From NCBI GenBank assembly GCA_016219965.1, contig JACRJM010000007.1, positions 372,294-436,293 of the forward strand: a stretch of DNA of 64,000 nt, written 5' to 3'. This DNA is from Candidatus Schekmanbacteria bacterium. GTDB taxonomy: Bacteria > Schekmanbacteria > GWA2-38-11 > J061. The translations under genes were made by a program, and so were the position numbers. Below the pieces are notes generated by a model. That model did no database searches, had not been told where the DNA came from, and saw only the letters and a list, made by a program, of their open reading frames with translations. Numbering within the stretch: the first letter of the stretch is position 1; the number at the start of each line of letters is the position of its first letter. Positions 88 through 64,000 of this stretch are shown here, one piece after another.

Positions 88-1260
88 ATGGGAAATGATA
101 ATCTATATCCTGTTTTTACAGCCGGCGTTTTCCTAAAACACCTTGAAGAACCGTACATCTACAACATATTAAATGACGAGCTTTACGAGATAAACGACGA
201 AGCGCTCGAATTTCTTATTAAATGTGATGGGATAACCCCCCTTTCCTCTCTTTCCTTCGATAATGAGTTCATGGATTACTGCTTAGAGGAAAAGCTTTTA
301 GAGCTAGCTGAAATCAGAATAGATAATCCAAAAAAACCGCCGGTCAGAAAGTCCCCTGTCCCGTCATTGAGATACCTTGAGCTTCAGATAACGGACAGGT
401 GTAACCTTGCCTGCCGCCATTGTTATCTTGGAGAGCCGAAAGGGAAAGAGCTTACGATTCAAAATATAAAGGATGTCTTCACACAGTTTGAAGAATTGCA
501 GGGACTCCGGATGATAGTCTCCGGCGGAGAGCCTATGCTTCACCGCGATTTTGCCATTATCAATGAAGAGATAAAAGGGCGCGCCTTCAGAGCTATACTT
601 CTTACTAACGGGACTATTATCAATGAAGAGAAAGCCAGGAATCTCAATTTCCAGGAGGTGCAGATAAGTCTCGACGGACTTGAAGAAGCACATGACCATC
701 TAAGGGGAAAAGGTAACTTTAAGAAAGCAGTTAAGGCTGCGAAAATTCTTATTGAAATGGGAATAGACGTCTCTGCGGCAACGATGATAACAAAGATGAA
801 CGCCAATGATTTCGAACCTTTGGAAGCTATGCTTAAAGATATGGGGGTAAAAGAGTGGGCTGTCGATGTGCCTGCAGGAACGGGTTTTGCGGCGGGAGGA
901 GGAGGTGATATCTTCTTGCCATCCAAAGAAGCTTCATTATATCTAAGATACGGATATGGAGGAGGGCTTTACCAGTCTACAGGGGAATATGCCTGCGGAG
1001 CCCACCTATGTGCGATAACACCTGACGGCAGCGTATGCAAATGCGGATTCTTCGCAGACAAGCCTGCCGGCAATATCAATGCTGACAGCCTTTCTGATTG
1101 CTGGGGCAGGATAGAGAAACAGAGATTCAGCGAGCTTGAATGCGGAAATTGCGAATATATTGCCGAGTGCCGCGGAGGATGCAGGTTCAGGGCAATGCTT
1201 GAGAGTTCCATGAATGCACCAGACAGTGTGAAATGCTTTGCGTATGGAATAAAAAAATAA
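88..1260 (+). CDS. Radical SAM/SPASM-domain peptide-modifying enzyme with N-terminal PqqD-like RRE (RiPP maturase-like)
   Basis: 390-aa ORF; CxxxCxxC cluster (DRCNLACRHCY); C-terminal SPASM-type Cys motifs (CGAHLC..CKCGFF and CGNCEYIAECRGGC); N-terminal ~85 aa (LYEINDEALEFLIKCDGITPL) resembles a PqqD/RRE peptide-binding domain. Confidence 0.8.
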   Translation: MGNDNLYPVFTAGVFLKHLEEPYIYNILNDELYEINDEALEFLIKCDGITPLSSLSFDNEFMDYCLEEKLLELAEIRIDNPKKPPVRKSPVPSLRYLELQITDRCNLACRHCYLGEPKGKELTIQNIKDVFTQFEELQGLRMIVSGGEPMLHRDFAIINEEIKGRAFRAILLTNGTIINEEKARNLNFQEVQISLDGLEEAHDHLRGKGNFKKAVKAAKILIEMGIDVSAATMITKMNANDFEPLEAMLKDMGVKEWAVDVPAGTGFAAGGGGDIFLPSKEASLYLRYGYGGGLYQSTGEYACGAHLCAITPDGSVCKCGFFADKPAGNINADSLSDCWGRIEKQRFSELECGNCEYIAECRGGCRFRAMLESSMNAPDSVKCFAYGIKK

Positions 1261-4136: not shown

Positions 4137-5885
4137 ATGCGGATGATACGTGTCGGTGCAGCGCAGATAAATACAACTGTAGGGGACCTTGCCGGGAATA
4201 CGTCTAAGATGACGGAAATCATAAAAAAGGCCAAGGACTTATCTATTGATATTCTGACATTCCCCGAGCTTGCAATCACAGGCTACCCTCCCAAAGACCT
4301 TCTGCTCAAGAGAAAGTTCATTCAGGACAATATCCAGATGCTTGATAAAATATGTAATGCCTCAAAAGGGATCATAGTCATTGCCGGATTCGTTAACGAG
4401 GAAAATGACATTTTCAACTCCGCTGCAGTCATACAGAACGGAAAGATAGTCGGCATCCAGAACAAGATACACCTTCCTAATTACAGTGTCTTTGATGAAA
4501 AAAGATATTTCAGGAGCGGAAAGGAAAGCCTGCTTTTTAAAGGAAAGAACATGACCTTCGGCGTCAACATCTGTGAAGATATATGGATTCCCGGATACCC
4601 GACTGAAAACCAGGCAAGTTCCGGAGCCGAGCTTATAATCAACATATCGGCTTCCCCTTATCATGTCGGCAAACCTGCGTTCAGGGAGGAAATGCTTAAG
4701 ACACGATGCACTGACAACATTGTCGCCCTTGTGTTCAACAATCTTGTAGGGGGACAGGACGACCTTGTATTTGACGGGCGAAGCATGATCATAAACTGCA
4801 AAGGGGAAATCCTCAGGAGAGGAAAGCTTTTTGAGGAAGACCTTATAATGTCTGACATAAACCTTGATGACATAAAAAGGATGAGGCTCCAGGACCCGAG
4901 GGGAAGGGAAGAACTCATGACTCCCGATGAGCATAAAGTAACGATAGTAAATATTGACGGGAAAATTTCTTCAGCAAAACAGAAGAAGAGAATCAGAGTG
5001 AACAGCAAGGCAGAGAAGGCATCTGGAAACAAGATCAGCCGCGCTGAGGAAATCTACAAAGCACTGGTCCTGGGAGTAAGCGATTATCTCAGAAAAAACG
5101 GTTTCAAACAGGTAATCCTGGGATTGAGCGGCGGGATAGATTCTTCGCTTGTAGCGACTATTGCCGTTGACGCACTTGGCAAAGAAAATGTCATTGGGAT
5201 CGCAATGCCGACTTCCATATCCTCATCACACAGCATTGAAGATGCGCGCCATCTTGCAAAGAACCTCTCCATAAGATTCGAGGTGGTTCCAATACAGTCT
5301 GTCTTTGATGAATACACAGAGATACTTTCCCCGCTTTTCAAGGGACGCAAATGGGATGTAGCTGAAGAAAACATCCAGGCAAGGATAAGAGGAAACATAC
5401 TGATGGCTCTTTCCAATAAATTCGGATACCTGCTGCTCACAACAGGGAACAAGTCTGAGCTGAGCGTCGGCTATGCGACACTTTACGGTGACATGGCAGG
5501 TGGCCTTGCCGTAATATCCGATGTCCCGAAAACATGGGTATATGAACTTGCAAGGTACAGGAACTCAGTTGCAGGAAAATCGCTCATCCCTGAAAGGTGC
5601 ATCACAAAACCACCTTCAGCAGAGCTTCGGCCAAATCAGAAAGACACGGATTCTCTTCCCGAGTACGAAATCCTGGATCAGATACTTCATCTTTATATTG
5701 AAGAGGACAACAGCCTTGAAGAGATAGTACGCCGGGGGATTGATGAAAAAACCGCACGCGATATGATACAGAGGATAGACGGGAATGAATACAAGAGACA
5801 GCAGGCCCCTCCGGGCATAAGGATAACAACAAAGGCTTTCGGTTCTGGAAGAAGGATACCAATCACTAACAAGTACAGAGGTTAA
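4137..5885 (+). CDS. nadE: Glutamine-dependent NAD+ synthetase
   Basis: N-terminal nitrilase/CN-hydrolase domain fused to C-terminal NAD synthetase with PP-loop LGLSGGIDSS. Confidence 0.9.
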   Translation: MRMIRVGAAQINTTVGDLAGNTSKMTEIIKKAKDLSIDILTFPELAITGYPPKDLLLKRKFIQDNIQMLDKICNASKGIIVIAGFVNEENDIFNSAAVIQNGKIVGIQNKIHLPNYSVFDEKRYFRSGKESLLFKGKNMTFGVNICEDIWIPGYPTENQASSGAELIINISASPYHVGKPAFREEMLKTRCTDNIVALVFNNLVGGQDDLVFDGRSMIINCKGEILRRGKLFEEDLIMSDINLDDIKRMRLQDPRGREELMTPDEHKVTIVNIDGKISSAKQKKRIRVNSKAEKASGNKISRAEEIYKALVLGVSDYLRKNGFKQVILGLSGGIDSSLVATIAVDALGKENVIGIAMPTSISSSHSIEDARHLAKNLSIRFEVVPIQSVFDEYTEILSPLFKGRKWDVAEENIQARIRGNILMALSNKFGYLLLTTGNKSELSVGYATLYGDMAGGLAVISDVPKTWVYELARYRNSVAGKSLIPERCITKPPSAELRPNQKDTDSLPEYEILDQILHLYIEEDNSLEEIVRRGIDEKTARDMIQRIDGNEYKRQQAPPGIRITTKAFGSGRRIPITNKYRG

Positions 5886-8518
5886 GCTGAAAGGCTTAAA
5901 GGTGGCGTCGTCTGCTTATGGCATATTTTTAAAAACTCATCGAAATCCACACGTTCTGTCATTTTTGAATATGTGATATTAATCTTTTCCTCGACATCCC
6001 TGTCCTTCACGATAACAGGCCTGCGGGCAAATGTTTCAAGGTAAAGATCAACATGCCCTTTGTCGCGTGTTATCACTACTTCAACGTACTTGGCTGAATA
6101 GCGTAATTTCAAACGCATAATATAGAATACAAGGACTTCGATAAAATCACCCGCCTCTATTGCAGAATCAGGAAGACCGCAAAACCTGCGGTTGTCTATG
6201 TAGTTGTCATAGAGGTCTTTAAATAAATCAAACTCATCTTCAACAGCAGAAGTTTTAATTCTGAGCCTGAAAACTTCCATGCCTGTTCCATCAGGAACTG
6301 ATGCATATGCCGGAGCTGATACGTCTGCCGGAACAGATGTAATAGGCTCTGTCTTATTTTTTCCTGCCTGAGCTTCAGATGAGATTGAAACCGGTTTGCT
6401 GATATTTGCTGCTGGAATATTCTTATTCACTCCGTATGTCTCAACATATTCACTGTTGCAAACTTCGATGAGCTGATCCAGCGTGCGTGCTTTATACTTA
6501 TCAGACTCCATCTGGAAAACTACCCTGTTAATTTCTTTAAGGGTCGTAATACCTTTAAGCGATTTGTAAATCCCATCTTCCCTCAGTGAAATGAGTTCCG
6601 CCGCCTGCCTTGCAATATGCCTGATTTCAGATGAAGGCATTCTTTGAAGAATCGCATCTCTAATCGAGTCATTCAAAACAAGAAGTTCATGGATGGCAGT
6701 CCTTCCCTTGAATCCGGTATGATTGCATTTATCGCAACCTTTTCCTTTGTAAAATTTATGATTCTGTGCATCATCGGGTGATATGTGGAAGGAAGCCAGC
6801 ACTTCAGGATCCAGATCGGTATCTTCCACCTTGCAGTATCCGCATATTGTTCTTACAAGGCGCTGGGACATAACTGACACTATTGTTGATGAAATAAGAA
6901 ATGTCTCAATACCCATATCCATGAGCCTCAGCAGTGCGCTTGTACTGTCATCGGTATGGAAGGACGAGAGGACCTTATGTCCTGTCAGCGCTGCCTGGAT
7001 AGTTGCCTCGGCAGCCACTTTATCGCGCACCTCGCCAACCATCAGCACATCCGGGTCCTGCCTCATCATGGATTTTAAGAAATCCATATAGCTCATACCG
7101 AGTTTTGGATCCAGTTTTCCCTGAACAACCCCATCAATCATATACTCAACAGGGTCTTCAACAGTGATGATAGAGTAATTTTTTTTGTTCAGATAGCAGA
7201 GAACAGCATAAAGACTTGTCGTCTTACCCGAACCTGTAGGCCCTGTTGCAAGAATAACACCTGTAGGAGAATCGACAATCTTCCTGAACCTTGAGAGATT
7301 GATAGGCGAAAGCCCCAGGCTCTCTATATCAATTAATGACGACTGCCTGTGGAGTATCCTGATGACAATGGTTTCGCCATAGACTGAAGCGTAAGTTGAA
7401 ACCCTGAGGTCTATCTCTTTACCCATTACGTTTGCATATATCTTCCCATCCTGGTGCCGCCTTTTTTCAGAGATATCAAGCTGGCATACGGCTTTTATTC
7501 TTGAAGCCACGTTGGGAGCAATGCTGGAAGGCAAATCTGTTTTATGTACCATTACACCGTCAATCCTGTATCTTATTCTTAACCTGTTCTGCTGGGGCTC
7601 AATGTGAATATCGCTTGCACCCTCTTTTACTCCATTGGATATTATATAATTTACGACTGAAACTATTTTATCATCTCCCCTGCTCAAATCCACATTACCT
7701 ATTGTAAGCTGGCTCTTGCTTAAAGATGATGATTCACTGCCGTTAAAAGAGCCCAAGTCTTTAAGATGTACTTTCTCATAGACATTCTTTATGGCAAAAA
7801 GGATCTCTTCTTTTGAAGCTATTCCTACTATGACATTATCTTTGATTGTAGACTTAATGCTGATTATTAAATTTTCATCAAGCGGGTCAGCCATCGCAAT
7901 AGTAACATTGTTCTCATCGTTAAAAACAGGGATGAAGTAGTTTGTTTCGAGGAACTTCCTATTAAAACTGTTTAACAGCGATGCCTCTATAAGAAGCGGG
8001 TCTGGTTTTATCCTTGGGATATCGAGCTGATGGCTTAAAGCCATGATAAGGTTTTCTTCGTTTATACATCCCATCTCAACCAGTGTCTCTCCGAGCTTCT
8101 TATTAAGAACCTTCTGCTTTTGAAGTGCCTCCCCAACCTGTTTTTCATTGATGAGACCCATTGAAGTGAAAAGCTCACCTATTCTCATCTCCTTGCCATA
8201 TTGCTTTATGATGTTCTTGAGCTCATGCCTTGTAATAAGACCTTCAGCAATACATATCTCTCCAATGGGGAGATGTTCAGTAGATTCTTTTTGAAGGATA
8301 AGAAGCCTTTGAAGCTCTTCTTCTTTAATTATCTTTTCCTTTACCAGAATCTCGCCAAGTTTTAGCTTTGTCTTTGCAGGAACCATCTGTTTACATGCCT
8401 TGCCATAAAAAAATTGTGAGAACGTTTCTTCGTCACCACGCGCTCTAATATTAACATATCTAACATAACTATCATCTCTGTTAATGAAACAATTATCCAA
8501 TTCCATAAGACTTGACAA
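5882..8518 (-). CDS. GspE/PilB-family secretion ATPase with four N-terminal T2SSE_N-like repeats and a ~200-aa C-terminal extension
   Basis: Walker A GPTGSGKTT; tetracysteine CGYC..CDKC motif; four tandem LGE(I/L)..(E/Q)..L repeats at the N-terminus; extra C-terminal region of unknown function; true start may be an internal Met. Confidence 0.8.
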   Translation of the reverse strand: MSSLMELDNCFINRDDSYVRYVNIRARGDEETFSQFFYGKACKQMVPAKTKLKLGEILVKEKIIKEEELQRLLILQKESTEHLPIGEICIAEGLITRHELKNIIKQYGKEMRIGELFTSMGLINEKQVGEALQKQKVLNKKLGETLVEMGCINEENLIMALSHQLDIPRIKPDPLLIEASLLNSFNRKFLETNYFIPVFNDENNVTIAMADPLDENLIISIKSTIKDNVIVGIASKEEILFAIKNVYEKVHLKDLGSFNGSESSSLSKSQLTIGNVDLSRGDDKIVSVVNYIISNGVKEGASDIHIEPQQNRLRIRYRIDGVMVHKTDLPSSIAPNVASRIKAVCQLDISEKRRHQDGKIYANVMGKEIDLRVSTYASVYGETIVIRILHRQSSLIDIESLGLSPINLSRFRKIVDSPTGVILATGPTGSGKTTSLYAVLCYLNKKNYSIITVEDPVEYMIDGVVQGKLDPKLGMSYMDFLKSMMRQDPDVLMVGEVRDKVAAEATIQAALTGHKVLSSFHTDDSTSALLRLMDMGIETFLISSTIVSVMSQRLVRTICGYCKVEDTDLDPEVLASFHISPDDAQNHKFYKGKGCDKCNHTGFKGRTAIHELLVLNDSIRDAILQRMPSSEIRHIARQAAELISLREDGIYKSLKGITTLKEINRVVFQMESDKYKARTLDQLIEVCNSEYVETYGVNKNIPAANISKPVSISSEAQAGKNKTEPITSVPADVSAPAYASVPDGTGMEVFRLRIKTSAVEDEFDLFKDLYDNYIDNRRFCGLPDSAIEAGDFIEVLVFYIMRLKLRYSAKYVEVVITRDKGHVDLYLETFARRPVIVKDRDVEEKINITYSKMTERVDFDEFLKICHKQTTPPLSLSA

Positions 8519-56734: not shown

Positions 56735-57451
56735 TCAAACTGTCCCTGCTTTTACATCTATCTGCGTAAGCTTCCCATGCTCAAGCCGCAATACCCTGTC
56801 AGACTTACTTGCAATATCAAAGTTATGCGTTGCAATTACAAAGCTTTCGTTCTTGCTTTTATTAAGATTCCGCAAAAGTTCAAATACCTCATCCCCGGTC
56901 TCTCTGTCAAGGTTTCCGGTAGGCTCATCGGCAAGGACTATCTTCGGACTCATTGCCAGGGCCCTTGCTAATGCAACCCTTTGCTGCTCACCTCCGGAAA
57001 GCTCTGAAGGACGATGCTCAACCCTTTCGCCAAGCCCCACTTCTGAAAGGAGGTTAACCGCCAACTCCCTTGCCTCCTTCATGCTTTTCCCGTTGATCAA
57101 TTGCGGTATCATTACATTCTCAAGGCTTGAAAATTCCATAAGAAGGTGGTGGAACTGGAACACAAATCCAATGTTTACGTTCCTGAATCTTGCCCTCTCC
57201 TCTTCCTTGAACTTCCAGATGTCTTCAGAGCCGTAAAAAATCTCCCCGCCATCAGGAGAGTCAAGCAAACCAAGCAAATGAAGCAGTGTACTCTTACCAG
57301 TACCCGATGCACCGACGATGCTCACAAGCTCACCCTGTTTCAGGGAAAAGCTGAGACCCTTTAAGACCTCTATCTTTGCATCTCCCATCTGGTAGGATTT
57401 GCTGAGGTCTTTAGCTTCTAAAATAATATTATTAGACAATTCGCACTTCAT
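56735..57451 (-). CDS. lolD: Lipoprotein-releasing system ATP-binding protein
   Basis: Walker [10 protein letters not shown]; ABC signature [14 protein letters not shown]; Walker [12 protein letters not shown]. Confidence 0.85.
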
Positions 57452-58001
57452 TTGTTGATTACCTTACGACACGGCAAACAGGGCATTATATAAAAAAGTT
57501 CCGGTCATACTTTTAAGCTTCAAGCCTTACCGAAACAAATGCTTTCAACGAAAATAACAAAATAAAACAGGTATGTAAAAAGCCAAATAATTGTGCGAGT
57601 TATATAGGTCGGGGATTAAAAGTCAAGGAAAAATGGCAGCGGATAAAACCGGTACTTATGATATTTTGAAGAAAGAAAACAAGTAGAAAAAAACATAACA
57701 AGCTAAATAAAACCGTCGAATATTTGAACACTTTAAGTCGTTTAAAATCAATATGTTCTAAAAACTCACTAAAAAGTGTGCAGTTTAGTGAACAGTTTAG
57801 TAGGAGTTTATATTAACCTATCCAAGCTATACGACACATTTAAACCTAATATTTTCAAGCAAATCAGTATGTTATTATCTTCGAGTTACCTTCTGGCACA
57901 TTCTTTGCTTATTTTATATAGAATATTTTTTAAGTTTACTATTTAAGTCTTGTATATAGCCTGTAAAATTTTTTTCCACTTCAGAATAAGGGGGTATTGT
58001 G

Positions 58002-60512
58002 ATGAGGCGTAAATCAATTCTATTCATTATTGTTTTCTCAATTCTGTTAATTCCTCTTCTTGCTTTTGCAAACACATCACCTGATACATCAAAAGTTTTA
58101 GCCAAGGCCGCAAAGCTTCAGATACCTTTCATAGAGAACAAGGGACAGGTTCAGGACAAGTCTGTAAGATTTTATGCAAACACCTTCGCAGGCAATGTGT
58201 TTGTTACGGATAAAGGAGAGATAGTTTACGGGCTGGCAAACGGAGAAAGCTTTACTCCCCTTCGCGAAACTCTCCTTGGTACAATACCGTCAACTATAAA
58301 AGGCGAGAGCAAATCAGCAACACAGGTAAATTACTTCGTTGGCAATAAAGAAAACTGGAAGTCAAACATCTCCACATGGGACAGCGTAAATCTCGGCGAA
58401 GTCTATGAAGGTGTAGAGCTAAAGCTCAAAGCATATGGGAAAAATGTTGAAAAGCTTTTCTATGTAAATGAATGCGGAGATGTTGATGATATTAAACTAA
58501 CATTCGACGGCGCAGAAGATATTTCAGTTAACAAAGATGGCGAGCTTGAAATTGAAACAGCTCTCGGCACAGTGAAATTTACAAAGCCCTTCGCCTATCA
58601 GGAAATTGATGGAAAAAAGGTTGAAGTGAAATGCGACTTCGTAACTAATTCTTTCTCCTATGGCTTCCAGGTCACCTCATACAACAAAAACTATCCTCTG
58701 GTTATTGACCCATCTATTGTTTATTCAACATATCTTGGCGGAAGTAGTTTTGATTATGGTTACGGCATTGACGCTGACTGTTCAGGAAATGTTTATGTCA
58801 TAGGTGGCACCGAATCGACTGATTTTATAATTTCTTCTCCATATCAAGGGGATAGTGGTGGTTCTGCAGACATCTTTGTTACAAAAATAAATTCATCTGG
58901 TTCTGTTATCTACTCTACTTATATTGGTGGGAATGGGTATGACAGAGGTTACGATATTGCAGTTGACTGCTCAGGGAATGCTTACATCACTGGCTTTACA
59001 GAGTCTAGTAATTTCCCTACAGTTTCACCGATTCGTGCTACTAATGGTGGAGGTATGGATGTTTTTATTACAAAAATCAATCCCTCAGGCTCAAGCCTGA
59101 TATATTCAACTTATTTAGGAGGTAATTCCAGCGACGTTGGATTTGCTATCGCTGTTAACGCTTCCGGAAATGCATACATTACCGGAAGTACTTTATCATC
59201 AAACTTTCCAAAATATCATAATGTAATCCCAAATTCAAAGTATGGAACCACAGATGCAAGTGACGCTTTTATTGTAAAAATAAATTTATCCGGTACGGGT
59301 CTATTGTATTCCATGCTTCTTGGAGGAAATAATGATGATGAAGCAAAGGGCATCGCTGTTGACGGCAATGGAAACATCTATGTAGCTGGGAACACAAATT
59401 CGTCTGATTTCCCTACTGTTCTTCCTATTCAAGCTACAAAAGCAGGAACTGGCACTACAAGTGATGCTTTTGTCACAAAGATAAATGCCGCTGGAACAGC
59501 AATTTTATATTCTACCTACATTGGAGGTAGTAATATAGATTATGCTAATGGAGCTGACGTAGATAGTGCTGGTAATGTTTATATTACTGGGGCAACTAAA
59601 TCCAATAATTTCCCTACAGTCTTACCAATTAAAGGGTATGGCGGTGGGTATGATGCTTTTGTTACAAAGATTAATGAATCTGGTTCAGCTATTGTTTATT
59701 CTACTTACCTTGGAAGTGGTTATGGAGATTTTGGTAACGGCATCGCTGTTGATAATTCTGGGAATGCTTATGTTGCTGGCAATACAGGTGGGAATTTCCC
59801 TCAAGTATTGCCTGTTCAAACTACAAATTTAGACGGAGGTGATGCTTTTATTACAAAAATAAATGCATCCGGAGATGCTTTTGTTTTTTCCACACGTTAT
59901 GGAGGACAAGAAAGTGATGATGCAAGAGCGATTGCCATTGATAGCAGTGGAAATATTTACATCACAGGAAACACGTCTTCTACTAATTTTCAAATAGCTG
60001 CTCCAATACAACGCGCATATAATGGAGTATGGGACGCTTTTGTTGCAAAGATTGGAGAAGCGTCGGATAGTGATTCGGATGGGATTGCAGATTCAGCAGA
60101 TAATTGTCCTACAGTTTCAAATTCCGACCAAGCTGATTATAATAATAATGGACAAGGTGATGCATGTGACCCGCCTCCAACGTTAATAACCCTTTCCTCT
60201 TTTGAAGCCAAACAATCTGGCAAAAAAGTCTTAATAACTTGGCAGACCGCCACAGAGATCGACAACCTCGGTTTCAACATCCTGCGCAGTGAGACTGCTG
60301 ATGGAGAATATGTTAAGATAAATAAAAAACTCATCAAAGCCAAAGGTAGTTCAACAAAAGGTGCGAGTTACAAGTTCAAAGATAAGAATATCGAGGCAGG
60401 AAAGACTTATTTCTACAAACTCGAAGATATTGACAGTAGCACAGGACCAAATCTGTCTGATGCGGTGAAAGTTGAAGTGACTGCGAGGAAGGGAAAAGAG
60501 AAGAAGAAATAA
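58002..60512 (+). CDS. Secreted SBBP-type beta-propeller repeat protein with thrombospondin-type-3-like Asp-rich segment and conserved C-terminal domain (paralog 1)
   Basis: Signal peptide MRRKSILFIIVFSILLIPLLAFA; about nine tandem units of pattern (V/I)YSTY(L/I)GG..D.G.GIA(V/I)D.SGN.Y(V/I)TG.T.S.NFP; DSDSDGIADSADNCPTVSNSDQADYNNNGQGDACD; C-terminal ~110 aa ending in Lys-rich tail; ATG at 58002 follows RBS AAGGGGG. Confidence 0.8.
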   Translation: MRRKSILFIIVFSILLIPLLAFANTSPDTSKVLAKAAKLQIPFIENKGQVQDKSVRFYANTFAGNVFVTDKGEIVYGLANGESFTPLRETLLGTIPSTIKGESKSATQVNYFVGNKENWKSNISTWDSVNLGEVYEGVELKLKAYGKNVEKLFYVNECGDVDDIKLTFDGAEDISVNKDGELEIETALGTVKFTKPFAYQEIDGKKVEVKCDFVTNSFSYGFQVTSYNKNYPLVIDPSIVYSTYLGGSSFDYGYGIDADCSGNVYVIGGTESTDFIISSPYQGDSGGSADIFVTKINSSGSVIYSTYIGGNGYDRGYDIAVDCSGNAYITGFTESSNFPTVSPIRATNGGGMDVFITKINPSGSSLIYSTYLGGNSSDVGFAIAVNASGNAYITGSTLSSNFPKYHNVIPNSKYGTTDASDAFIVKINLSGTGLLYSMLLGGNNDDEAKGIAVDGNGNIYVAGNTNSSDFPTVLPIQATKAGTGTTSDAFVTKINAAGTAILYSTYIGGSNIDYANGADVDSAGNVYITGATKSNNFPTVLPIKGYGGGYDAFVTKINESGSAIVYSTYLGSGYGDFGNGIAVDNSGNAYVAGNTGGNFPQVLPVQTTNLDGGDAFITKINASGDAFVFSTRYGGQESDDARAIAIDSSGNIYITGNTSSTNFQIAAPIQRAYNGVWDAFVAKIGEASDSDSDGIADSADNCPTVSNSDQADYNNNGQGDACDPPPTLITLSSFEAKQSGKKVLITWQTATEIDNLGFNILRSETADGEYVKINKKLIKAKGSSTKGASYKFKDKNIEAGKTYFYKLEDIDSSTGPNLSDAVKVEVTARKGKEKKK

Positions 60513-60522
60513 AAGATTCTGG

Positions 60523-60583
60523 ATCCCGCATCAAGTGCGGGATGACAAAAGTGACTGTGTTGGATGCCGGCTCAAGTCCGGCA
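60523..60583 (+). other. Tandem stem-loop pair between the large gene and the small peptide gene
   Basis: ATCCCGCA-TCAAG-TGCGGGAT and ATGCCGG-CTCAAGT-CCGGCAT, each followed by GACA; same pair recurs at 63282-63342. Confidence 0.6.
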
Positions 60584-60630
60584 TGACAGATTATTAAGGA
60601 ATGACAACAGGATTAATAGGAGAATATAAA

Positions 60631-60786
60631 ATGAATAAGATGAAAAAAATTTATAAAAAACCAACTATCAGAAAAGTAAAACTTGTTCCTGAAGAAGCAG
60701 TTCTCGGTGTTTGCAAGAGCGACACAGGCGCGGGACCAAATCAGTCAGTCTGCATCATCCCACAATGCTTTAATCCGGGAAGCTGA
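60631..60786 (+). CDS. Conserved 51-aa three-cysteine peptide (paralog 1), unknown function
   Basis: MNKMKKIYKKPTIRKVKLVPEEAVLGVCKSDTGAGPNQSVCIIPQCFNPGS; RBS AGGAGA 7 nt upstream; copy 2 differs at 17 codons, 13 of them synonymous. Confidence 0.65.
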   Translation: MNKMKKIYKKPTIRKVKLVPEEAVLGVCKSDTGAGPNQSVCIIPQCFNPGS

Positions 60787-60820
60787 TTATTTTATAAAAC
60801 AAATATCTGGGGGTATTGTG

Positions 60821-63271
60821 ATGGGGCGTAAATCAATTCTATTTATTATTGTGTTCTCAATCCTGTTAATTCCTTTCATTACTTTTGCAAACACACAACC
60901 TGATACATCAAAAGTTTTAGCTAAGGCGGCTAAGCTCCAGATACCTTTCATAGAGAACAAGGGACAGGTTCAGGACAAGTCTGTAAGATTTTATGCAAAC
61001 ACTTTTGCAGGCAATGTGTTCGTTACTGATAAAGGAGAGATAGTTTACGGGTTGGTAAACGGAGAAAGCTTTACTCCCCTTCGCGAAACTCTCATTGGTA
61101 CAATACCGTCAACTATAAAGGGCGAGAGCAAATCAGCAACACAGGTAAATTACTTCGTTGGTAATAAAGAAAACTGGAAGTCAAACATCTCCACATGGGA
61201 CAGCGTAAATCTCGGTGAAGTCTATGAAGGTGTGGAGTTAAAGCTCAAAGCATACGGACAAAATGTAGAAAAGCTTTTCTATGTAAATGAATGCGGAGAT
61301 GTTGATGATATTAAACTAACATTCGACGGTGCAGAAGATATTTTTGTCAATGAAAGCGGAGAACTTGAAGTAGAGACAGAACTCGGCACAGTGAAATTTA
61401 CCAAGCCCTTCGCCTATCAGGAGCTTGATGGAAAAAAGATTGAGGTAAAATGCAACTTCATCGTCCCTTCCTCTACCCTGCGGGGAGAGGAACGAGGTGA
61501 GGGGGAACTCTCCTACGGCTTCCAGGTCGCCTCATACGACAAGAACTATCCGCTGGTCATAGATCCATCTATTGTTTATTTTGGAACATTTGGTGGAGGT
61601 GTAACAACCATCCCCTATGATGTAACTCTCGATAATTCAGGAAATGTGTACATCACAGGACAAACTTATGGCACTCTCGGTGATTTTCCACTAATTTCTC
61701 CATTATATAGTTATAATAAAGGGGACAGTGATGTGTTTGTTTTAAAAATTAATGCAAGCGGCACCGCACTTGTTTATTCAACTTTTATCGGTGGAACCGG
61801 GGTTGATGTCGGCTATGGTATCGCAGTTGATAGCTCAGAGAATATTTATATTACAGGTTCGACAACATCATCTAATTTTCCCTTAATGTCTCCAATACAA
61901 GCTTTGAAAGCTGGAACAAATGATGCATTTATTACCAAAATAAATTCATCCGGAACATCCCTTATTTATTCAACATATCTGGGAGGTAGCAATTCTGATT
62001 ACTGTACCGCAATAGCAGTTGATAACTCGGGGAATGCCTATGTTACAGGAAATACCAATTCTACAAATTTCCCCTTGTCATCTCCATTGCAGGGAAGTTT
62101 TGGGGGAGGAAGTTACGACGCATTTTTAACAAAAATTAATTCTTCAGGAAATGTTTTTGTTTATTCTACATACCTTGGTGGAAGCGACTGGGAAAGGGGG
62201 AATAGTATTGCCGTTGATTCAGCAGGCAATGCATATGTGACTGGAAGCACACAATCAACAAATTTCCCTATATATAATGCCTTTCAATCAACTATGAAAG
62301 ACAACAATGGTTATTATTCCCAACATGCTTTTATAACAAAGATTAATTCTTCAGGCACGACATTTATTTTTTCAACATATTTTGGAGGAACTTTCGGTGC
62401 TGTTGGTAAAGGCATTGCAGTTGATTCATACGGTAATATCTATGTAGGCGGTGAAACTTTTTCCTATGATCTTCCAGTTACCAACTATCTTTCAAATCCT
62501 TTCCCTATGAGCACTAATGCCTTTGTAAGTAAATTTGACACAACAGGCGCCACACTTCTTTATTCTACTTTTTTCGGTGGAAGTTGGGAACAGACAGTAA
62601 ATGACATTGCTATAGACGGAGGCGGCAATATTTATATTGTCGGTTCAACATACTCTTATGTCGATTTTCCAGTTTATAGAGCCTTCCAGCCGCAATTCAA
62701 CAATACAAGTGGTCTTAAAGATGGTTTTGTAAGCAAAATAAATCCGGCAACCCAATCTTTTGAATATTCCTCTTATTTAGGTAGTTATAGTTATGGAGTT
62801 GATAATGTGGCATATGGGGTTGCCGCATCACTTGATGGCACTGCATATGTAGCGGGAGTATCTGGTTTGCCAAGAATTAACAGTCCTTCAGGTTTAAATG
62901 GCGGGGACGCTTTTATTGCTAAAATTGCAGATATCCCAACAGCTATAACTCTTTCATTATTTGAAATAAATCAGCACGGCAAAAAAGTCCTTTTAACTTG
63001 GCAAACCGCCACAGAGATCGACAACCTCGGATTCAACATCCTGCGCAGTGAGACTGCTGATGGTCAATATGTTAAGATAAATAACAGACTCATCAAAGCC
63101 AAAGGGAGTTCAACAAAAGGTGTGAGTTACAAGTTCAAAGATAAGAATATTGAGGCAGGAAAGACTTACTTCTACAAACTCGAAGATATTGACAGCAACA
63201 CAGGACCAAATCTGTCTGATGCGGTGAAAGTTAAAGTGACCGCAAGGAAGGGAAAAGAGAAGAAGAAATAA
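60821..63271 (+). CDS. Secreted SBBP-type beta-propeller repeat protein (paralog 2)
   Basis: Start at MGRKSILF after the same GGGGGTATTGTG RBS block; N-terminal ~240 aa and C-terminal ~110 aa near-identical to paralog 1 at DNA level, central repeat region divergent; ORF-track start at 60683 rejected. Confidence 0.8.
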   Translation: MGRKSILFIIVFSILLIPFITFANTQPDTSKVLAKAAKLQIPFIENKGQVQDKSVRFYANTFAGNVFVTDKGEIVYGLVNGESFTPLRETLIGTIPSTIKGESKSATQVNYFVGNKENWKSNISTWDSVNLGEVYEGVELKLKAYGQNVEKLFYVNECGDVDDIKLTFDGAEDIFVNESGELEVETELGTVKFTKPFAYQELDGKKIEVKCNFIVPSSTLRGEERGEGELSYGFQVASYDKNYPLVIDPSIVYFGTFGGGVTTIPYDVTLDNSGNVYITGQTYGTLGDFPLISPLYSYNKGDSDVFVLKINASGTALVYSTFIGGTGVDVGYGIAVDSSENIYITGSTTSSNFPLMSPIQALKAGTNDAFITKINSSGTSLIYSTYLGGSNSDYCTAIAVDNSGNAYVTGNTNSTNFPLSSPLQGSFGGGSYDAFLTKINSSGNVFVYSTYLGGSDWERGNSIAVDSAGNAYVTGSTQSTNFPIYNAFQSTMKDNNGYYSQHAFITKINSSGTTFIFSTYFGGTFGAVGKGIAVDSYGNIYVGGETFSYDLPVTNYLSNPFPMSTNAFVSKFDTTGATLLYSTFFGGSWEQTVNDIAIDGGGNIYIVGSTYSYVDFPVYRAFQPQFNNTSGLKDGFVSKINPATQSFEYSSYLGSYSYGVDNVAYGVAASLDGTAYVAGVSGLPRINSPSGLNGGDAFIAKIADIPTAITLSLFEINQHGKKVLLTWQTATEIDNLGFNILRSETADGQYVKINNRLIKAKGSSTKGVSYKFKDKNIEAGKTYFYKLEDIDSNTGPNLSDAVKVKVTARKGKEKKK

Positions 63272-63390
63272 AAGATTCTGGATCCCGCATCAAGTGCGGG
63301 ATGACAAAAGTGACTGTGCTGGATGCCGGCTCAAGTCCGGCATGACAGATTATTAAAGAATGACAACAGGATTAATAGGAGAATATAATA

Positions 63391-63546
63391 ATGAATAAGG
63401 TAAAGAAGGCTTACAGAAAACCAACCATCAGAAAAGTAAAACTTGTTCCGGAAGAGGCAGTCCTTGGCGTATGCAAGAGCGACACAGGCGCAGGCCCAAA
63501 TCAGTCAACCTGCATCATCCCGCAATGCTTTAATCCGGGAAGCTGA
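63391..63546 (+). CDS. Conserved 51-aa three-cysteine peptide (paralog 2)
   Basis: MNKVKKAYRKPTIRKVKLVPEEAVLGVCKSDTGAGPNQSTCIIPQCFNPGS; below the ORF-track size cutoff but clearly the copy of 60631-60786. Confidence 0.65.
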   Translation: MNKVKKAYRKPTIRKVKLVPEEAVLGVCKSDTGAGPNQSTCIIPQCFNPGS

Positions 63547-63600
63547 TAGAATTATTATGAGCCGCTGCAACTTTTTATATAAATTGAATAAGGAGCGGGT

Positions 63601-64000
63601 TATGGTAAATCAAAAATTGATTTCTACCATGTTGTTTTTAATCACAGCATCCGCCTTTCTATTTACAACGAGTTCTGGCGCAGGCGAAATCACATTAGCT
63701 CCGATTGCAGACGGATCAGTGGCAAGACAATATACGACATATTCAATATTTACACCAGGTTCAGTTAAATTTGGCGAAGGAAATACTGTAGTTTCTAATG
63801 ACAATATTACAGTTCATCAACAAAGGGGTTATAGTTTCAATGATGTTGAATGTGAAGAAGGTATAATCGAGTTTGATATTACTTCTCTGAGCGAGCTATC
63901 TCCGGGTAGTTTCAATGCAGAATTAATACTCACTGTAGACAACTCAAACTGGCCTGCCGTACAATATCCTTCGACAGCGTATAACGAATTATTTGTTTAT
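63601..64000 (+). CDS. Secreted hypothetical protein, 5' partial (runs off window end)
   Basis: RBS AAGGAG then ATG; signal-peptide-like MVNQKLISTMLFLITASAFLFTTSSGAGE; open frame to the window edge. Confidence 0.5.

What the first reader, a model, noticed from the sequence alone, without database searches (positions are those of the whole stretch)
58002..63546. Tandemly duplicated two-gene module: secreted beta-propeller protein plus 51-aa Cys peptide, with mosaic conservation
Two consecutive copies of [large SBBP-repeat secreted protein]-[tandem stem-loops]-[51-aa peptide]. Between copies, the first ~700 bp (signal peptide and N-terminal domain) and last ~330 bp (C-terminal domain) of the large gene are near-identical by eye, as is the downstream spacer and peptide gene. 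The central propeller-repeat region is replaced by a divergent set of the same repeat family, and copy 2 has a Gly/Glu-rich insert (SSTLRGEERGEGEL). That is the pattern expected from gene conversion or cassette swapping that varies a binding surface while keeping export and anchoring ends constant.
Basis: seen in the sequence. Interest (0 to 1): 0.8.

Follow-up and report, generated by a model that had tools for sequence, protein, structure and literature searches.

The report
Adhesin gene pair with RiPP-type peptides
Two neighbouring genes for secreted beta-propeller proteins in a Candidatus Schekmanbacteria genome have been patched together by recombination, and the small gene after each one belongs to a very large family of precursors for enzyme-modified peptides, a family that neither the curated libraries nor the paper searches made here name, and that sits here beside surface-protein genes instead of its modifying enzymes.

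Summary
Two tandem units run from 57990 to 60787 and from 60809 to 63547. Each holds an SBBP beta-propeller gene, two hairpins and a 51-aa gene. The units are 92-93% identical over about 725 bp at the 5' end and 570 bp at the 3' end. The centres cannot be aligned as DNA.

Synonymous divergence is about 0.3 in the flanks and about 1.9 (saturated) in the centre (Fisher p = 8e-10). The mosaic therefore comes from recombination, not from uneven protein evolution. Nothing indicates programmed cassette switching: the window has no donor copies, and central dN/dS is about 0.3.

The shared 3' end encodes an FN3-fold C-terminal domain (CTD) with a Lys-rich tail. In related loci this domain ends many unrelated secreted repeat proteins, and its sequences group by locus rather than by protein type.

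The 51-aa peptide has the invariant features of a broad RiPP-type precursor family: the leader [YW]xxPx[ILV]xxVKLVxEEAVLxxCK, three Cys and a C-terminal Ser. In 49 of 50 other loci such peptides lie beside genes for PqqD-like, radical SAM/SPASM, HprK-related, S26-like peptidase or NTP_transf_5 proteins.

In Schekmanbacteria the core is conserved, the gene is multicopy, and it is interleaved with CTD-protein genes with no maturase nearby. Why the two are linked is unknown.

The parts
57990..60787 (+). Tandem unit 1 (SBBP1, spacer with hairpins, pep1)
   Evidence: blastn boundaries of the duplicated blocks
60809..63547 (+). Tandem unit 2 (SBBP2, spacer with hairpins, pep2)
   Evidence: blastn boundaries
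58002..60512 (+). SBBP1 gene: Sec-type signal peptide, DUF7948, 7 SBBP blades, TSP3 linker, FN3-like C-terminal domain
   Evidence: ORF; Pfam; identical to NCBI MBI5375841.1, an 'SBBP repeat-containing protein' of Candidatus Schekmanbacteria
58128..58712 (+). DUF7948 domain of SBBP1, inside the conserved 5' block
   Evidence: Pfam PF25778, E = 1.8e-49, residues 44-238; dS about 0.30 against copy 2
58726..60176 (+). Divergent central region of copy 1 (SBBP blades plus TSP3 linker at 60066-60131)
   Evidence: No blastn match to copy 2; 43-46% aa identity; dS about 1.9 or saturated, dN/dS about 0.3; TSP_3 at residues 690-711
60177..60509 (+). FN3-like C-terminal domain (CTD) of SBBP1 with Lys-rich tail KGKEKKK
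60521..60587 (+). Two REP-like hairpins (60521-60546, 60562-60587) in the 121-nt spacer
   Evidence: Pattern search: 4 matches against 0 expected; RNA fold z = -3.5; no Rfam match; not terminator-like, no T run; related hairpins in L029, L056 and L064
60631..60786 (+). pep1: 51-aa RiPP-type precursor-like peptide (HZA77_10435)
   Evidence: ORF with AGGAG 8 nt upstream; 9 synonymous against 2 non-synonymous differences from pep2 in residues 16-51; family membership
60821..63271 (+). SBBP2 gene: signal peptide, DUF7948, 6 SBBP blades, FN3-like CTD, no TSP3
   Evidence: ORF and homology of its N-terminus to SBBP1; Pfam; NCBI MBI5375843.1
61472..61507 (+). 36-nt in-frame insert in a variable loop of DUF7948 (SSTLRGEERGEGEL), containing a 7-bp inverted repeat
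   Evidence: Protein alignment gap; sequence TTCCTCT...AGAGGAA; homologues have other loop lengths here
61581..62935 (+). Divergent central region of copy 2 (SBBP blades)
62936..63268 (+). FN3-like CTD of SBBP2
   Evidence: 88-89% aa identity to CTD1; local CTD profile E = 3e-57
63280..63346 (+). Two REP-like hairpins (63280-63305, 63321-63346); the spacer is 97.5% identical to that of unit 1
   Evidence: 3 differences in 121 nt, p = 5e-9 against the flank 4-fold rate
63391..63546 (+). pep2: 51-aa RiPP-type precursor-like peptide (HZA77_10445)
63602..64000 (+). 5' part of a third secreted-protein gene that runs off the window; its 86%-identical homologue P0183 (381 aa) ends in the same CTD and tail (…TARKGKEKKK)

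Best explanation
The window comes from a Candidatus Schekmanbacteria MAG.

Anatomy. The region is part of an array of genes for Sec-exported repeat proteins. These proteins share one FN3-fold C-terminal domain (CTD) with a Lys-rich tail. Interleaved with them are copies of a 51-aa gene.

Origin of the mosaic (shown). The two SBBP genes are old paralogues. Their central propellers have diverged to saturation. Their 5' end (signal peptide plus DUF7948) and 3' end (CTD, spacer, peptide gene) share a much more recent common ancestry.

Origin of the mosaic (inferred). Homologous recombination produced this pattern. One route is a tandem duplication at dS of about 0.3, followed by replacement of one centre from another paralogue. 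The other route is gene conversion of both ends. CTD sequences group by locus and not by passenger domain, so this kind of homogenisation is general in these arrays.

The peptide (shown). It is a conserved, translated member of a very large RiPP-type precursor family.

The peptide (inferred). It is probably matured in trans. The steps proposed are:
1. A PqqD-like protein recognises the [YW]xxPx[ILV]...VKLVPEEAVL leader.
2. A radical SAM/SPASM enzyme acts on the three Cys, probably forming thioether cross-links.
3. An HprK-related kinase, with or without an NTP_transf_5 enzyme, acts on the invariant C-terminal Ser. The HprK-family kinase and the nucleotidyltransferase of the lasso peptides paeninodin and pseudomycoidin act on a C-terminal Ser in this way.

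Co-location with CTD-protein genes most likely means co-expression and a shared extracellular role. The nature of that role is not shown.
For: Mosaic.
- blastn blocks are 92-93% identical, with nothing alignable between them.
- dS is 0.30 (N domain), 0.29 (CTD) and about 1.9 (centre).
- At 4-fold sites, 28/137 differ in the flanks and 61/103 in the centre, p = 8e-10.
- The N domain is 86% identical between the copies against 63% to the L001 homologue. The centre is 43-46% against 35-37%.

Concerted CTD evolution.
- The L001 LVIVD and TSP3 proteins share 88% CTD identity although their passenger domains are unrelated.
- L050 a and b share 96%.
- The window SBBP1 and SBBP2 CTDs are 82-85% identical to that of P0183, a close homologue of the window's third gene. 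They are 71-73% identical to the L001 SBBP CTD.

Peptide is a real gene.
- 9 synonymous against 2 non-synonymous changes in residues 16-51.
- 9 of 20 4-fold sites differ.
- The same MAG has at least 5 paralogues.

Peptide family.
- 66 distinct peptides were recovered.
- 62 of 66 carry the [YWF]xxPx[ILVMC]xx[VI]K[LI]V motif.
- Of 44 non-Schekmanbacteria cores, 43 end in Ser (the other is cut by a contig end) and 42 have 3 Cys.
- 49 of 50 such loci hold a PqqD-like, rSAM/SPASM, HprK-related, S26-like or NTP_transf_5 gene next to the peptide.
- Enzyme identities rest.
- The rSAM family has more than 5,530 clusters.
- L046 has a core similar in sequence and Cys spacing to the window's (CKTEAAGPNTSSC...) and sits beside the rSAM.

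Precedent for chemistry at the C-terminal Ser: PMC6993621.

Linkage to CTD genes: 16 of 26 Schekmanbacteria-type loci, always on the same strand.
Against: - No orthologue of the family's rSAM, PqqD-like, HprK-related or NTP_transf_5 genes occurs in the 64-kb window or anywhere in the 191 kb of Schekmanbacteria-type loci.
- None of the 120 listed rSAM hits is named Schekmanbacteria.
- The core is strongly conserved among paralogues and genomes. This is unlike the hypervariable cores of the enzyme-linked peptides and is unusual for dispersed RiPP precursors.
- No modification has been observed.
- The direction of the recombination events and the donor of the central region cannot be determined from one window.
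- The three parts of the 3' block differ in divergence: 20% of CTD 4-fold sites, 2.5% of the spacer, and 45% of peptide 4-fold sites. A single simple event does not explain this.
Confidence: 0.6

Rival explanations
1. The peptide no longer functions as a RiPP precursor. It is a small, unmodified or differently processed partner of the CTD proteins, for example a binding subunit, an assembly factor or a regulatory peptide. It would keep the ancestral leader only by descent.
For: No maturase lies in 191 kb of such loci. The core is conserved (17 near-identical cores), unlike the enzyme-linked relatives. The peptide is tightly linked, on the same strand, to CTD genes with gaps as short as about 8-30 nt.
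Against: Every invariant feature of the enzyme-linked family is kept under purifying selection: the [YW]xxP motif, VKLVPEEAVL, CK, three Cys and the terminal Ser. The one copy found away from CTD genes (L007/L021/L035) has lost its ATG, the Tyr and the terminal Ser. This suggests that these features matter where the gene is kept. Precursors encoded far from their enzyme are known, for example the prochlorosins (my own knowledge).
Confidence: 0.25
2. One reading: a dedicated variation system in which central propeller cassettes are swapped, by gene conversion from a repertoire, to vary a binding surface within a population.
For: The ends are conserved and the centre is divergent, with breakpoints at domain borders. 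CTD-encoding ends are homogenised among neighbouring genes.
Against: Only two expressed-looking full-length copies exist. tblastn of both proteins against the 64-kb window finds nothing else. No recombinase, invertase or reverse transcriptase gene was noticed nearby. Central dS is saturated and dN/dS is about 0.3, so the centres are old paralogues under purifying selection and not recently exchanged variants.
Confidence: 0.1
3. A plain tandem duplication followed by faster protein evolution of the propeller blades, without recombination.
For: Surface-exposed repeat domains often evolve fast (general knowledge).
Against: Synonymous divergence differs about six-fold between the flanks and the centre. 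One copy has a TSP3 linker and a different blade count.
Confidence: 0.05

Closest known systems
Radical SAM/SPASM-modified RiPPs with a PqqD-type recognition protein (sactipeptides and ranthipeptides such as SCIFF/thermocellin and PapB products; the SynChlorMet cassette ScmC-F)
   Same: The peptide's relatives lie directly beside a PqqD-like gene and a 360-370-aa rSAM/SPASM gene. They have a conserved leader, a Cys-bearing variable core and an HprK-related ScmC-like protein.
   Different: No NCBIfam equivalog reaches its cut-off for any cluster protein. The peptide matches no Pfam or NCBIfam model. The window copies have no enzyme nearby, and their core is conserved. The cross-link chemistry is unknown.
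Paeninodin and pseudomycoidin lasso peptide tailoring (HprK-family kinase PadeK/PsmK plus nucleotidyltransferase PsmN acting on the C-terminal Ser; PMC6993621)
   Same: The enzyme-linked relatives combine an HprK-related protein and an NTP_transf_5 protein with precursors that end in Ser in 43 of 43 complete cores. The window peptides also end in Ser.
   Different: No lasso cyclase is present; the core enzyme is an rSAM/SPASM. The similarity to HPr kinase is below the curated cut-offs. Phosphorylation is inferred, not shown.
Dispersed multicopy RiPP precursors served by one remote enzyme (prochlorosins, Nif11/NHLP-type precursors; my own knowledge)
   Same: One genome holds at least five paralogous precursor-like genes on three contigs, with the leader conserved.
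   Different: In those systems the cores are hypervariable. Here the core is nearly invariant, and each copy sits among genes for secreted CTD proteins.
SBBP repeat / DUF7948 secreted beta-propeller proteins (for example the Leptospira LipL53 family)
   Same: DUF7948 plus SBBP blades, and partial matches to NF047494.
   Different: Scores are 97-108 bits against a cut-off of 400, so these are not LipL53 equivalogs. They carry a signal peptide of the Sec type rather than a lipobox (read from the sequence), and an FN3-like CTD.
Quinohemoprotein amine dehydrogenase (small Cys-rich gamma subunit cross-linked by the rSAM/SPASM enzyme QhpD and assembled with a beta-propeller subunit; my own knowledge)
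   Same: A small Cys peptide of an rSAM-linked kind is encoded next to a beta-propeller protein.
   Different: There are no cytochrome or quinone-cofactor genes. The linkage here is to the FN3-like CTD of many passenger types, not to the propeller. No sequence similarity was tested or seen.

Membership tests
SBBP repeat / DUF7948 secreted proteins | DUF7948 N-terminal domain and multiple SBBP repeats above Pfam cut-offs | tested here: met
   PF25778 at 169 and 159 bits (cut-off 27); PF06739 at 199 and 163 bits (cut-off 20.5)
LipL53-family SBBP lipoprotein (NF047494) | Score at or above the equivalog cut-off (400 bits) | tested here: not met
   108 and 97 bits
RiPP-type precursor family linked to PqqD-like + rSAM/SPASM + HprK-related genes (unnamed) | Leader motif [YWF]xxPx[ILVMC]xx[VI]K[LI]VxEExV[LI]xxCK | tested here: met
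   Both window peptides carry it, as do 62 of 66 family members
RiPP-type precursor family linked to PqqD-like + rSAM/SPASM + HprK-related genes (unnamed) | Three Cys in the core and Ser as the last residue | tested here: met
   Window cores are CKSDTGAGPNQS[VT]CIIPQCFNPGS. In the family, 42 of 44 cores have 3 Cys and 43 of 43 complete cores end in Ser
RiPP-type precursor family linked to PqqD-like + rSAM/SPASM + HprK-related genes (unnamed) | Gene lies next to the maturation genes | tested here: not met
   0 of 26 Schekmanbacteria-type loci (191 kb) against 49 of 50 other loci. The window rSAM at 88-1257 is not an orthologue: 31% identity over half its length, and it follows a TusA gene
RiPP-type precursor family linked to PqqD-like + rSAM/SPASM + HprK-related genes (unnamed) | The peptide is post-translationally modified and its leader removed | not testable with these tools
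   Needs mass spectrometry or co-expression
Sactipeptide / ranthipeptide | Cys-to-carbon thioether bridges installed by an rSAM/SPASM enzyme | not testable with these tools
   Only the gene neighbourhood of relatives is known. Best NCBIfam matches to PapB, StsB and AlbA are far below their cut-offs
Cassette-based surface variation systems (pilE/pilS-type gene conversion, DGR) | Silent donor copies or template repeats of the variable region near the expressed gene | tested here: not met
   tblastn of both proteins against the window finds only the two genes
Cassette-based surface variation systems (pilE/pilS-type gene conversion, DGR) | Recent exchange or diversifying selection in the variable region | tested here: not met
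   Central dS is about 1.9 or saturated; dN/dS is about 0.3
Known C-terminal sorting domains (T9SS CTD, PEP-CTERM and similar) | Match to the family model, or for the CTERM types a motif followed by a TM helix and a basic cluster | tested here: not met
   No Pfam or NCBIfam sorting-domain match. The sequence has no hydrophobic helix before the Lys-rich tail. The best fold matches are FN3 domains
Fibronectin type III fold | Seven-strand beta-sandwich superposable on FN3 structures | tested here: met

The most novel reading that the evidence does not exclude
In Schekmanbacteria a RiPP-type peptide has been recruited as a dedicated extracellular partner of the FN3-like C-terminal domain. A cross-linked, possibly phosphorylated peptide would bind, tether or assemble a whole repertoire of adhesin-like proteins through their shared Lys-rich CTD. 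This would be a new kind of cell-surface display or matrix-assembly system. It would explain why the core is conserved, why the gene is multicopy, and why it travels with the CTD-encoding 3' ends.
Probability: 0.12. Interest if true: 0.85.

Novelty: new variant of a known kind. Interest (0 to 1): 0.6.

Why it matters
- It identifies a very large precursor and enzyme family. The family combines a PqqD-like protein, an rSAM/SPASM enzyme, an HprK-related protein, an S26-like peptidase and an NTP_transf_5 protein, and its rSAM has more than 5,530 protein clusters.
- The family is spread over uncultured anaerobic phyla. No Pfam or NCBIfam model names it, and no paper found here describes it.
- Its precursors have simple, searchable features: a conserved leader, three Cys and a terminal Ser.
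- It shows a lineage in which such precursors have left their enzymes, kept one core sequence, multiplied, and become interleaved with genes for secreted adhesin-like proteins that share one C-terminal domain. This hints at a role other than the usual antibiotic or signalling one.
- It gives a clean example of concerted evolution of a C-terminal domain across unrelated passenger domains.

Tried and rejected
- Exact-sequence contig look-ups for pep2, P0002, P0003, SBBP2 and SBBP1 found nothing. The contig beyond position 64000 could therefore not be read.
- A word-indexed protein search with the CTD returned only 9 short fragments. The exhaustive profile search was needed instead.
- Rfam found nothing in 57400-64000. 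The hairpins are not terminator-like. The promoter-like site at 63360-63389 is not above chance and would place the transcript start inside the ORF.
- The window rSAM at 88-1257 was considered as the missing maturase and rejected as unsupported. Only 31% identity over the core, no PqqD match in its N-terminal extension, a TusA gene upstream, and 57 kb of distance.
- Loci L076, L078 and L079 gave no useful context.
- Literature searches for SynChlorMet, Schekmanbacteria + radical SAM, HPr kinase + radical SAM + PqqD, SPASM + HPr kinase + RiPP, and Aminicenantes + RiPP found nothing relevant. PMC3133131 is not held.
- The afdb50 fold library was unavailable.
- I first called the third gene 'DNRLRE-like' from memory. 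NCBIfam gave no such match, so the label was dropped.
- P0293, an 860-aa ATPase, appears in the peptide's 90% cluster. This is a clustering artefact.
Full report
WHAT IS THERE

The window comes from a Candidatus Schekmanbacteria MAG, on a 516-kb contig with locus tags HZA77_10430 to HZA77_10445. After a run of housekeeping genes on the minus strand (glyS, glyQ, an ABC ATPase) and a 547-bp AT-rich gap, the plus strand carries these features:
- SBBP1, 58002-60512
- a 121-nt spacer with two hairpins
- pep1, 60631-60786
- SBBP2, 60821-63271
- the same spacer again
- pep2, 63391-63546
- a third secreted-protein gene from 63602 that runs off the window

Both large proteins have a Sec-type signal peptide (read from the sequence), a DUF7948 domain and 6-7 SBBP blades. 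Copy 1 alone has a TSP3 linker.

CHECK OF THE OBSERVATION

blastn gives three conserved blocks:
- 57990-58640 against 60809-61459, 92.2%
- 58654-58725 against 61509-61580, 88.9%
- 60219-60787 against 62978-63547, 92.8%

Nothing meaningful aligns between them.

At protein level, identity is about 95% in the N-terminal 215 residues, 30-55% in the blades, and about 90% in the last 110 residues. The insert SSTLRGEERGEGEL in copy 2 is real. It lies in a loop of DUF7948 whose length also varies in homologues, and its DNA contains a short inverted repeat.

IS THE MOSAIC MORE THAN UNEVEN PROTEIN EVOLUTION?

Yes. The evidence is as follows.
- Nei-Gojobori dS is 0.30 for the N domain, 0.29 for the C-terminal domain, and about 1.9 (several windows saturated) for the centre. 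Central dN/dS is about 0.3.
- At 4-fold sites within conserved residues, 28/137 differ in the flanks against 61/103 in the centre (Fisher p = 8e-10).
- Against the closest homologue from another genome (L001), the N domain is 63% identical (86% between the two copies). The centre is 35-37% identical (43-46% between the copies).

The centres are therefore old paralogues, and the ends share a much more recent ancestor. This requires recombination. One possibility is a tandem duplication followed by replacement of one centre. The other is conversion of both ends. The breakpoints sit at the DUF7948/blade border and at the start of the C-terminal domain.

I found no sign of a programmed switching device. 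tblastn finds no further copies in the window. No recombinase or reverse transcriptase was noticed among the neighbouring genes. The centre is under purifying selection.

THE SHARED 3' END IS A COMMON C-TERMINAL DOMAIN

Related loci show the same ~108-residue C-terminus, with the pattern PTxITLSSFxA...W.T.TEIDNxGFNIxRSE...Y.KIN..LI.AKG...GA.YKF.D....GKTY.YKLEDID... and a Lys-rich tail. It ends several unrelated kinds of protein:
- TSP3 proteins
- LVIVD, FG-GAP, NHL and RCC1-type proteins
- Thr-rich proteins

The homologue of the window's third gene (P0183, 86% identical over the part visible in the window) ends in the very same tail as SBBP1 and SBBP2.

A profile of the domain matches 52,136 cluster representatives, 791 of them at E <= 1e-30. 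Many matches lie at the extreme C-terminus, and some occur in tandem arrays.

CTD sequences group by locus rather than by passenger domain:
- 88% between the LVIVD and TSP3 proteins of L001
- 96% between the two L050 proteins
- 82-85% between the window SBBPs and P0183, against 71-73% to the L001 SBBP

This indicates concerted evolution of the CTD-encoding ends. The window's conserved 3' block is one instance of it.

THE 51-AA GENE

It is a real gene.
- It has an AGGAG 8 nt upstream of the ATG.
- The two copies differ by 9 synonymous and 2 non-synonymous changes in residues 16-51.
- 9 of its 20 4-fold sites differ, so its protein conservation is due to selection and not to recent copying.
- The same MAG has at least five paralogues on three contigs.
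- It matches no Pfam or NCBIfam model.

A genome scan and a metagenome DNA-pattern scan for K-L-V-x-E-E-x-V-L-x-x-C-K recovered 66 distinct peptides. They fall into two groups.

Group A (50 loci; Aminicenantes, Syntrophaceae and others):
- The leader is the same, but the core is hypervariable.
- 42 of 44 cores have exactly three Cys.
- All 43 complete cores end in Ser.
- In 49 of 50 loci the peptide lies in a conserved cluster. The gene order is PqqD-like, then rSAM/SPASM, then the peptide, then an HprK-related protein, an S26-like peptidase and an NTP_transf_5 protein. Some loci add a peptide-arginase-like gene.
- All 12 of the HprK-related proteins tested match HprK_rel_B, and their best PDB matches are HPr kinases. 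All these scores are below the curated cut-offs.
- The rSAM family has more than 5,530 clusters at E <= 1e-40, and sources name it only 'radical SAM protein'.
- In the lasso peptides paeninodin and pseudomycoidin, an HprK-family kinase phosphorylates the C-terminal Ser and a nucleotidyltransferase adds hexose to the phosphate (PMC6993621). The invariant terminal Ser of this family fits the same logic. This is an inference.

Group B (26 loci including the window; GC content about 33-42% in the seven of these loci checked, including the window; Schekmanbacteria where named):
- It has the same leader, three Cys and terminal Ser.
- The core is nearly fixed: CK[SNG][DEI]xxxGPNQSxC[IL]IPQCFNxGS.
- None of the maturation genes occurs in 191 kb of these loci.
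- In 16 loci a CTD-protein gene lies next to the peptide, on the same strand. It is usually upstream, with gaps from about 8 to 218 nt. In one locus (seen in L001 and L036) the peptide is the first gene after gdh and precedes the CTD genes.
- Not every CTD gene is followed by a peptide.
- One copy far from any CTD gene (L007/L021/L035) has lost its ATG, the Tyr and the terminal Ser.
- L046, a 63% GC group A locus, has a core similar in sequence and Cys spacing to group B and sits beside the rSAM. This ties the window peptide to the enzyme-linked family.

THE SPACER

The two hairpins differ from each other by compensatory changes. They share the loop TCAAG and the flanks GG...GAC. Similar hairpins occur in intergenic DNA of L029, L056 and L064, so they belong to a REP-like family. 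They lack a T run and match no Rfam family.

The whole 121-nt spacer differs at only 3 positions between the two units. That is far fewer than flanking 4-fold sites predict (p = 5e-9). Either the spacer is functionally constrained (the RNA folds with z = -3.5), or it was homogenised or inserted very recently. I cannot tell which.

HOW IT MOST LIKELY WORKS

Shown:
- The anatomy of the region.
- The recombinational mosaic.
- The shared FN3-fold CTD and its concerted evolution.
- The peptide's membership, by sequence, of an enzyme-linked precursor family.

Inferred:
- The large proteins are exported by Sec and act as surface or matrix binding proteins. The CTD and its Lys-rich tail would be the common attachment or assembly end.
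- The peptide is matured in trans by a family-type PqqD/rSAM/HprK-related system encoded elsewhere, and it is co-expressed with the CTD proteins.

Not known:
- Whether such a system exists in these genomes.
- What the modification is.
- Why the peptide is linked to CTD genes.

COMPARISON AND NOVELTY

The closest known kinds are:
- rSAM/SPASM RiPPs with a PqqD-type recognition protein, such as sactipeptides, ranthipeptides and the SynChlorMet cassette
- the HprK-kinase and nucleotidyltransferase tailoring of lasso peptides
- dispersed precursor families such as the prochlorosins (my own knowledge)

The window copies fail one defining feature of the family, adjacency to the enzymes. They also differ in having a fixed core and in being linked to CTD-protein genes. 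I found no paper and no curated model describing the family.

I rate this as a new variant of a known kind. The mosaic itself is ordinary paralogue recombination. The peptide family and its coupling to adhesin-like genes are the interesting part.

Noticed in passing
window 88-1257 (+): A 390-aa radical SAM/SPASM-type enzyme with a ~95-residue N-terminal extension of unknown kind and no NCBIfam equivalog. In a matching contig (L080) it follows a TusA-family gene. It is only 31% identical, over half its length, to the peptide-linked rSAM family.
   Followed up: partly
window 60510-60630 and 63269-63390: The spacer between the CTD stop codon and the peptide start codon is 97.5% identical between the units. 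That is much more conserved than synonymous sites on either side, the peptide gene included. It carries three ATGACA motifs and two hairpins.
   Followed up: partly
L029 7398-7423, L056 3800-3825, L064 4735-4760: Single hairpins (GGATTCCGCATCAAGTGCGGAATGAC and a variant) related to the window's by compensatory changes. They lie in intergenic DNA of other metagenome contigs, in either orientation, which suggests a REP-like element family.
   Followed up: partly
window 61472-61507: A 36-nt in-frame insert in SBBP2 (Gly/Glu-rich loop) that contains the inverted repeat TTCCTCT...AGAGGAA. It may be the footprint of a small palindromic insertion.
   Followed up: no
L077 466-2118: On a frameshift-ridden contig from another organism, a CTD-like ORF with a hydrophobic tail (…TPRLILGILGK) lies next to a different small Cys peptide (MENKKQYEAPAVITYSEDEIIDLLGPAQTCSPSPCPTY) and a PqqD-like gene. 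This may be an independent pairing of a RiPP-type peptide with an FN3-CTD protein.
   Followed up: partly
L007 878-1030 (also L021, L035): A degenerate copy of the peptide with no ATG, Tyr changed to Asp and the terminal Ser changed to Arg. It lies between a cyclase-like gene and a 389-aa membrane protein, with no CTD gene nearby.
   Followed up: partly
L008 5338-10457 and about 45 other loci (L013-L075): A conserved gene cluster that is widespread in uncultured anaerobic phyla and has no curated family name. Its order is PqqD-like, rSAM/SPASM, peptide, HprK-related, S26-like peptidase, NTP_transf_5, sometimes with a peptide-arginase-like gene. The rSAM has more than 5,530 protein clusters.
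   Followed up: partly
window 5882-8515 (-); L057 6516-11680 (-): A T2SS/T4P-type ATPase (T2SSE + MshEN) lies in the window. In L057, a run of ORFs whose N-termini read like pseudopilins, followed by two larger ORFs, lies a few kb from a CTD-gene/peptide pair (identified by eye, not tested against any family library). Whether CTD proteins use such a secretion system was not examined.
   Followed up: no
protein cluster of pep1/pep2: An unrelated 860-aa copper-ATPase-like protein (P0293) is listed as a member of the 51-aa peptide's 90% cluster. This is a clustering artefact in the database.
   Followed up: yes
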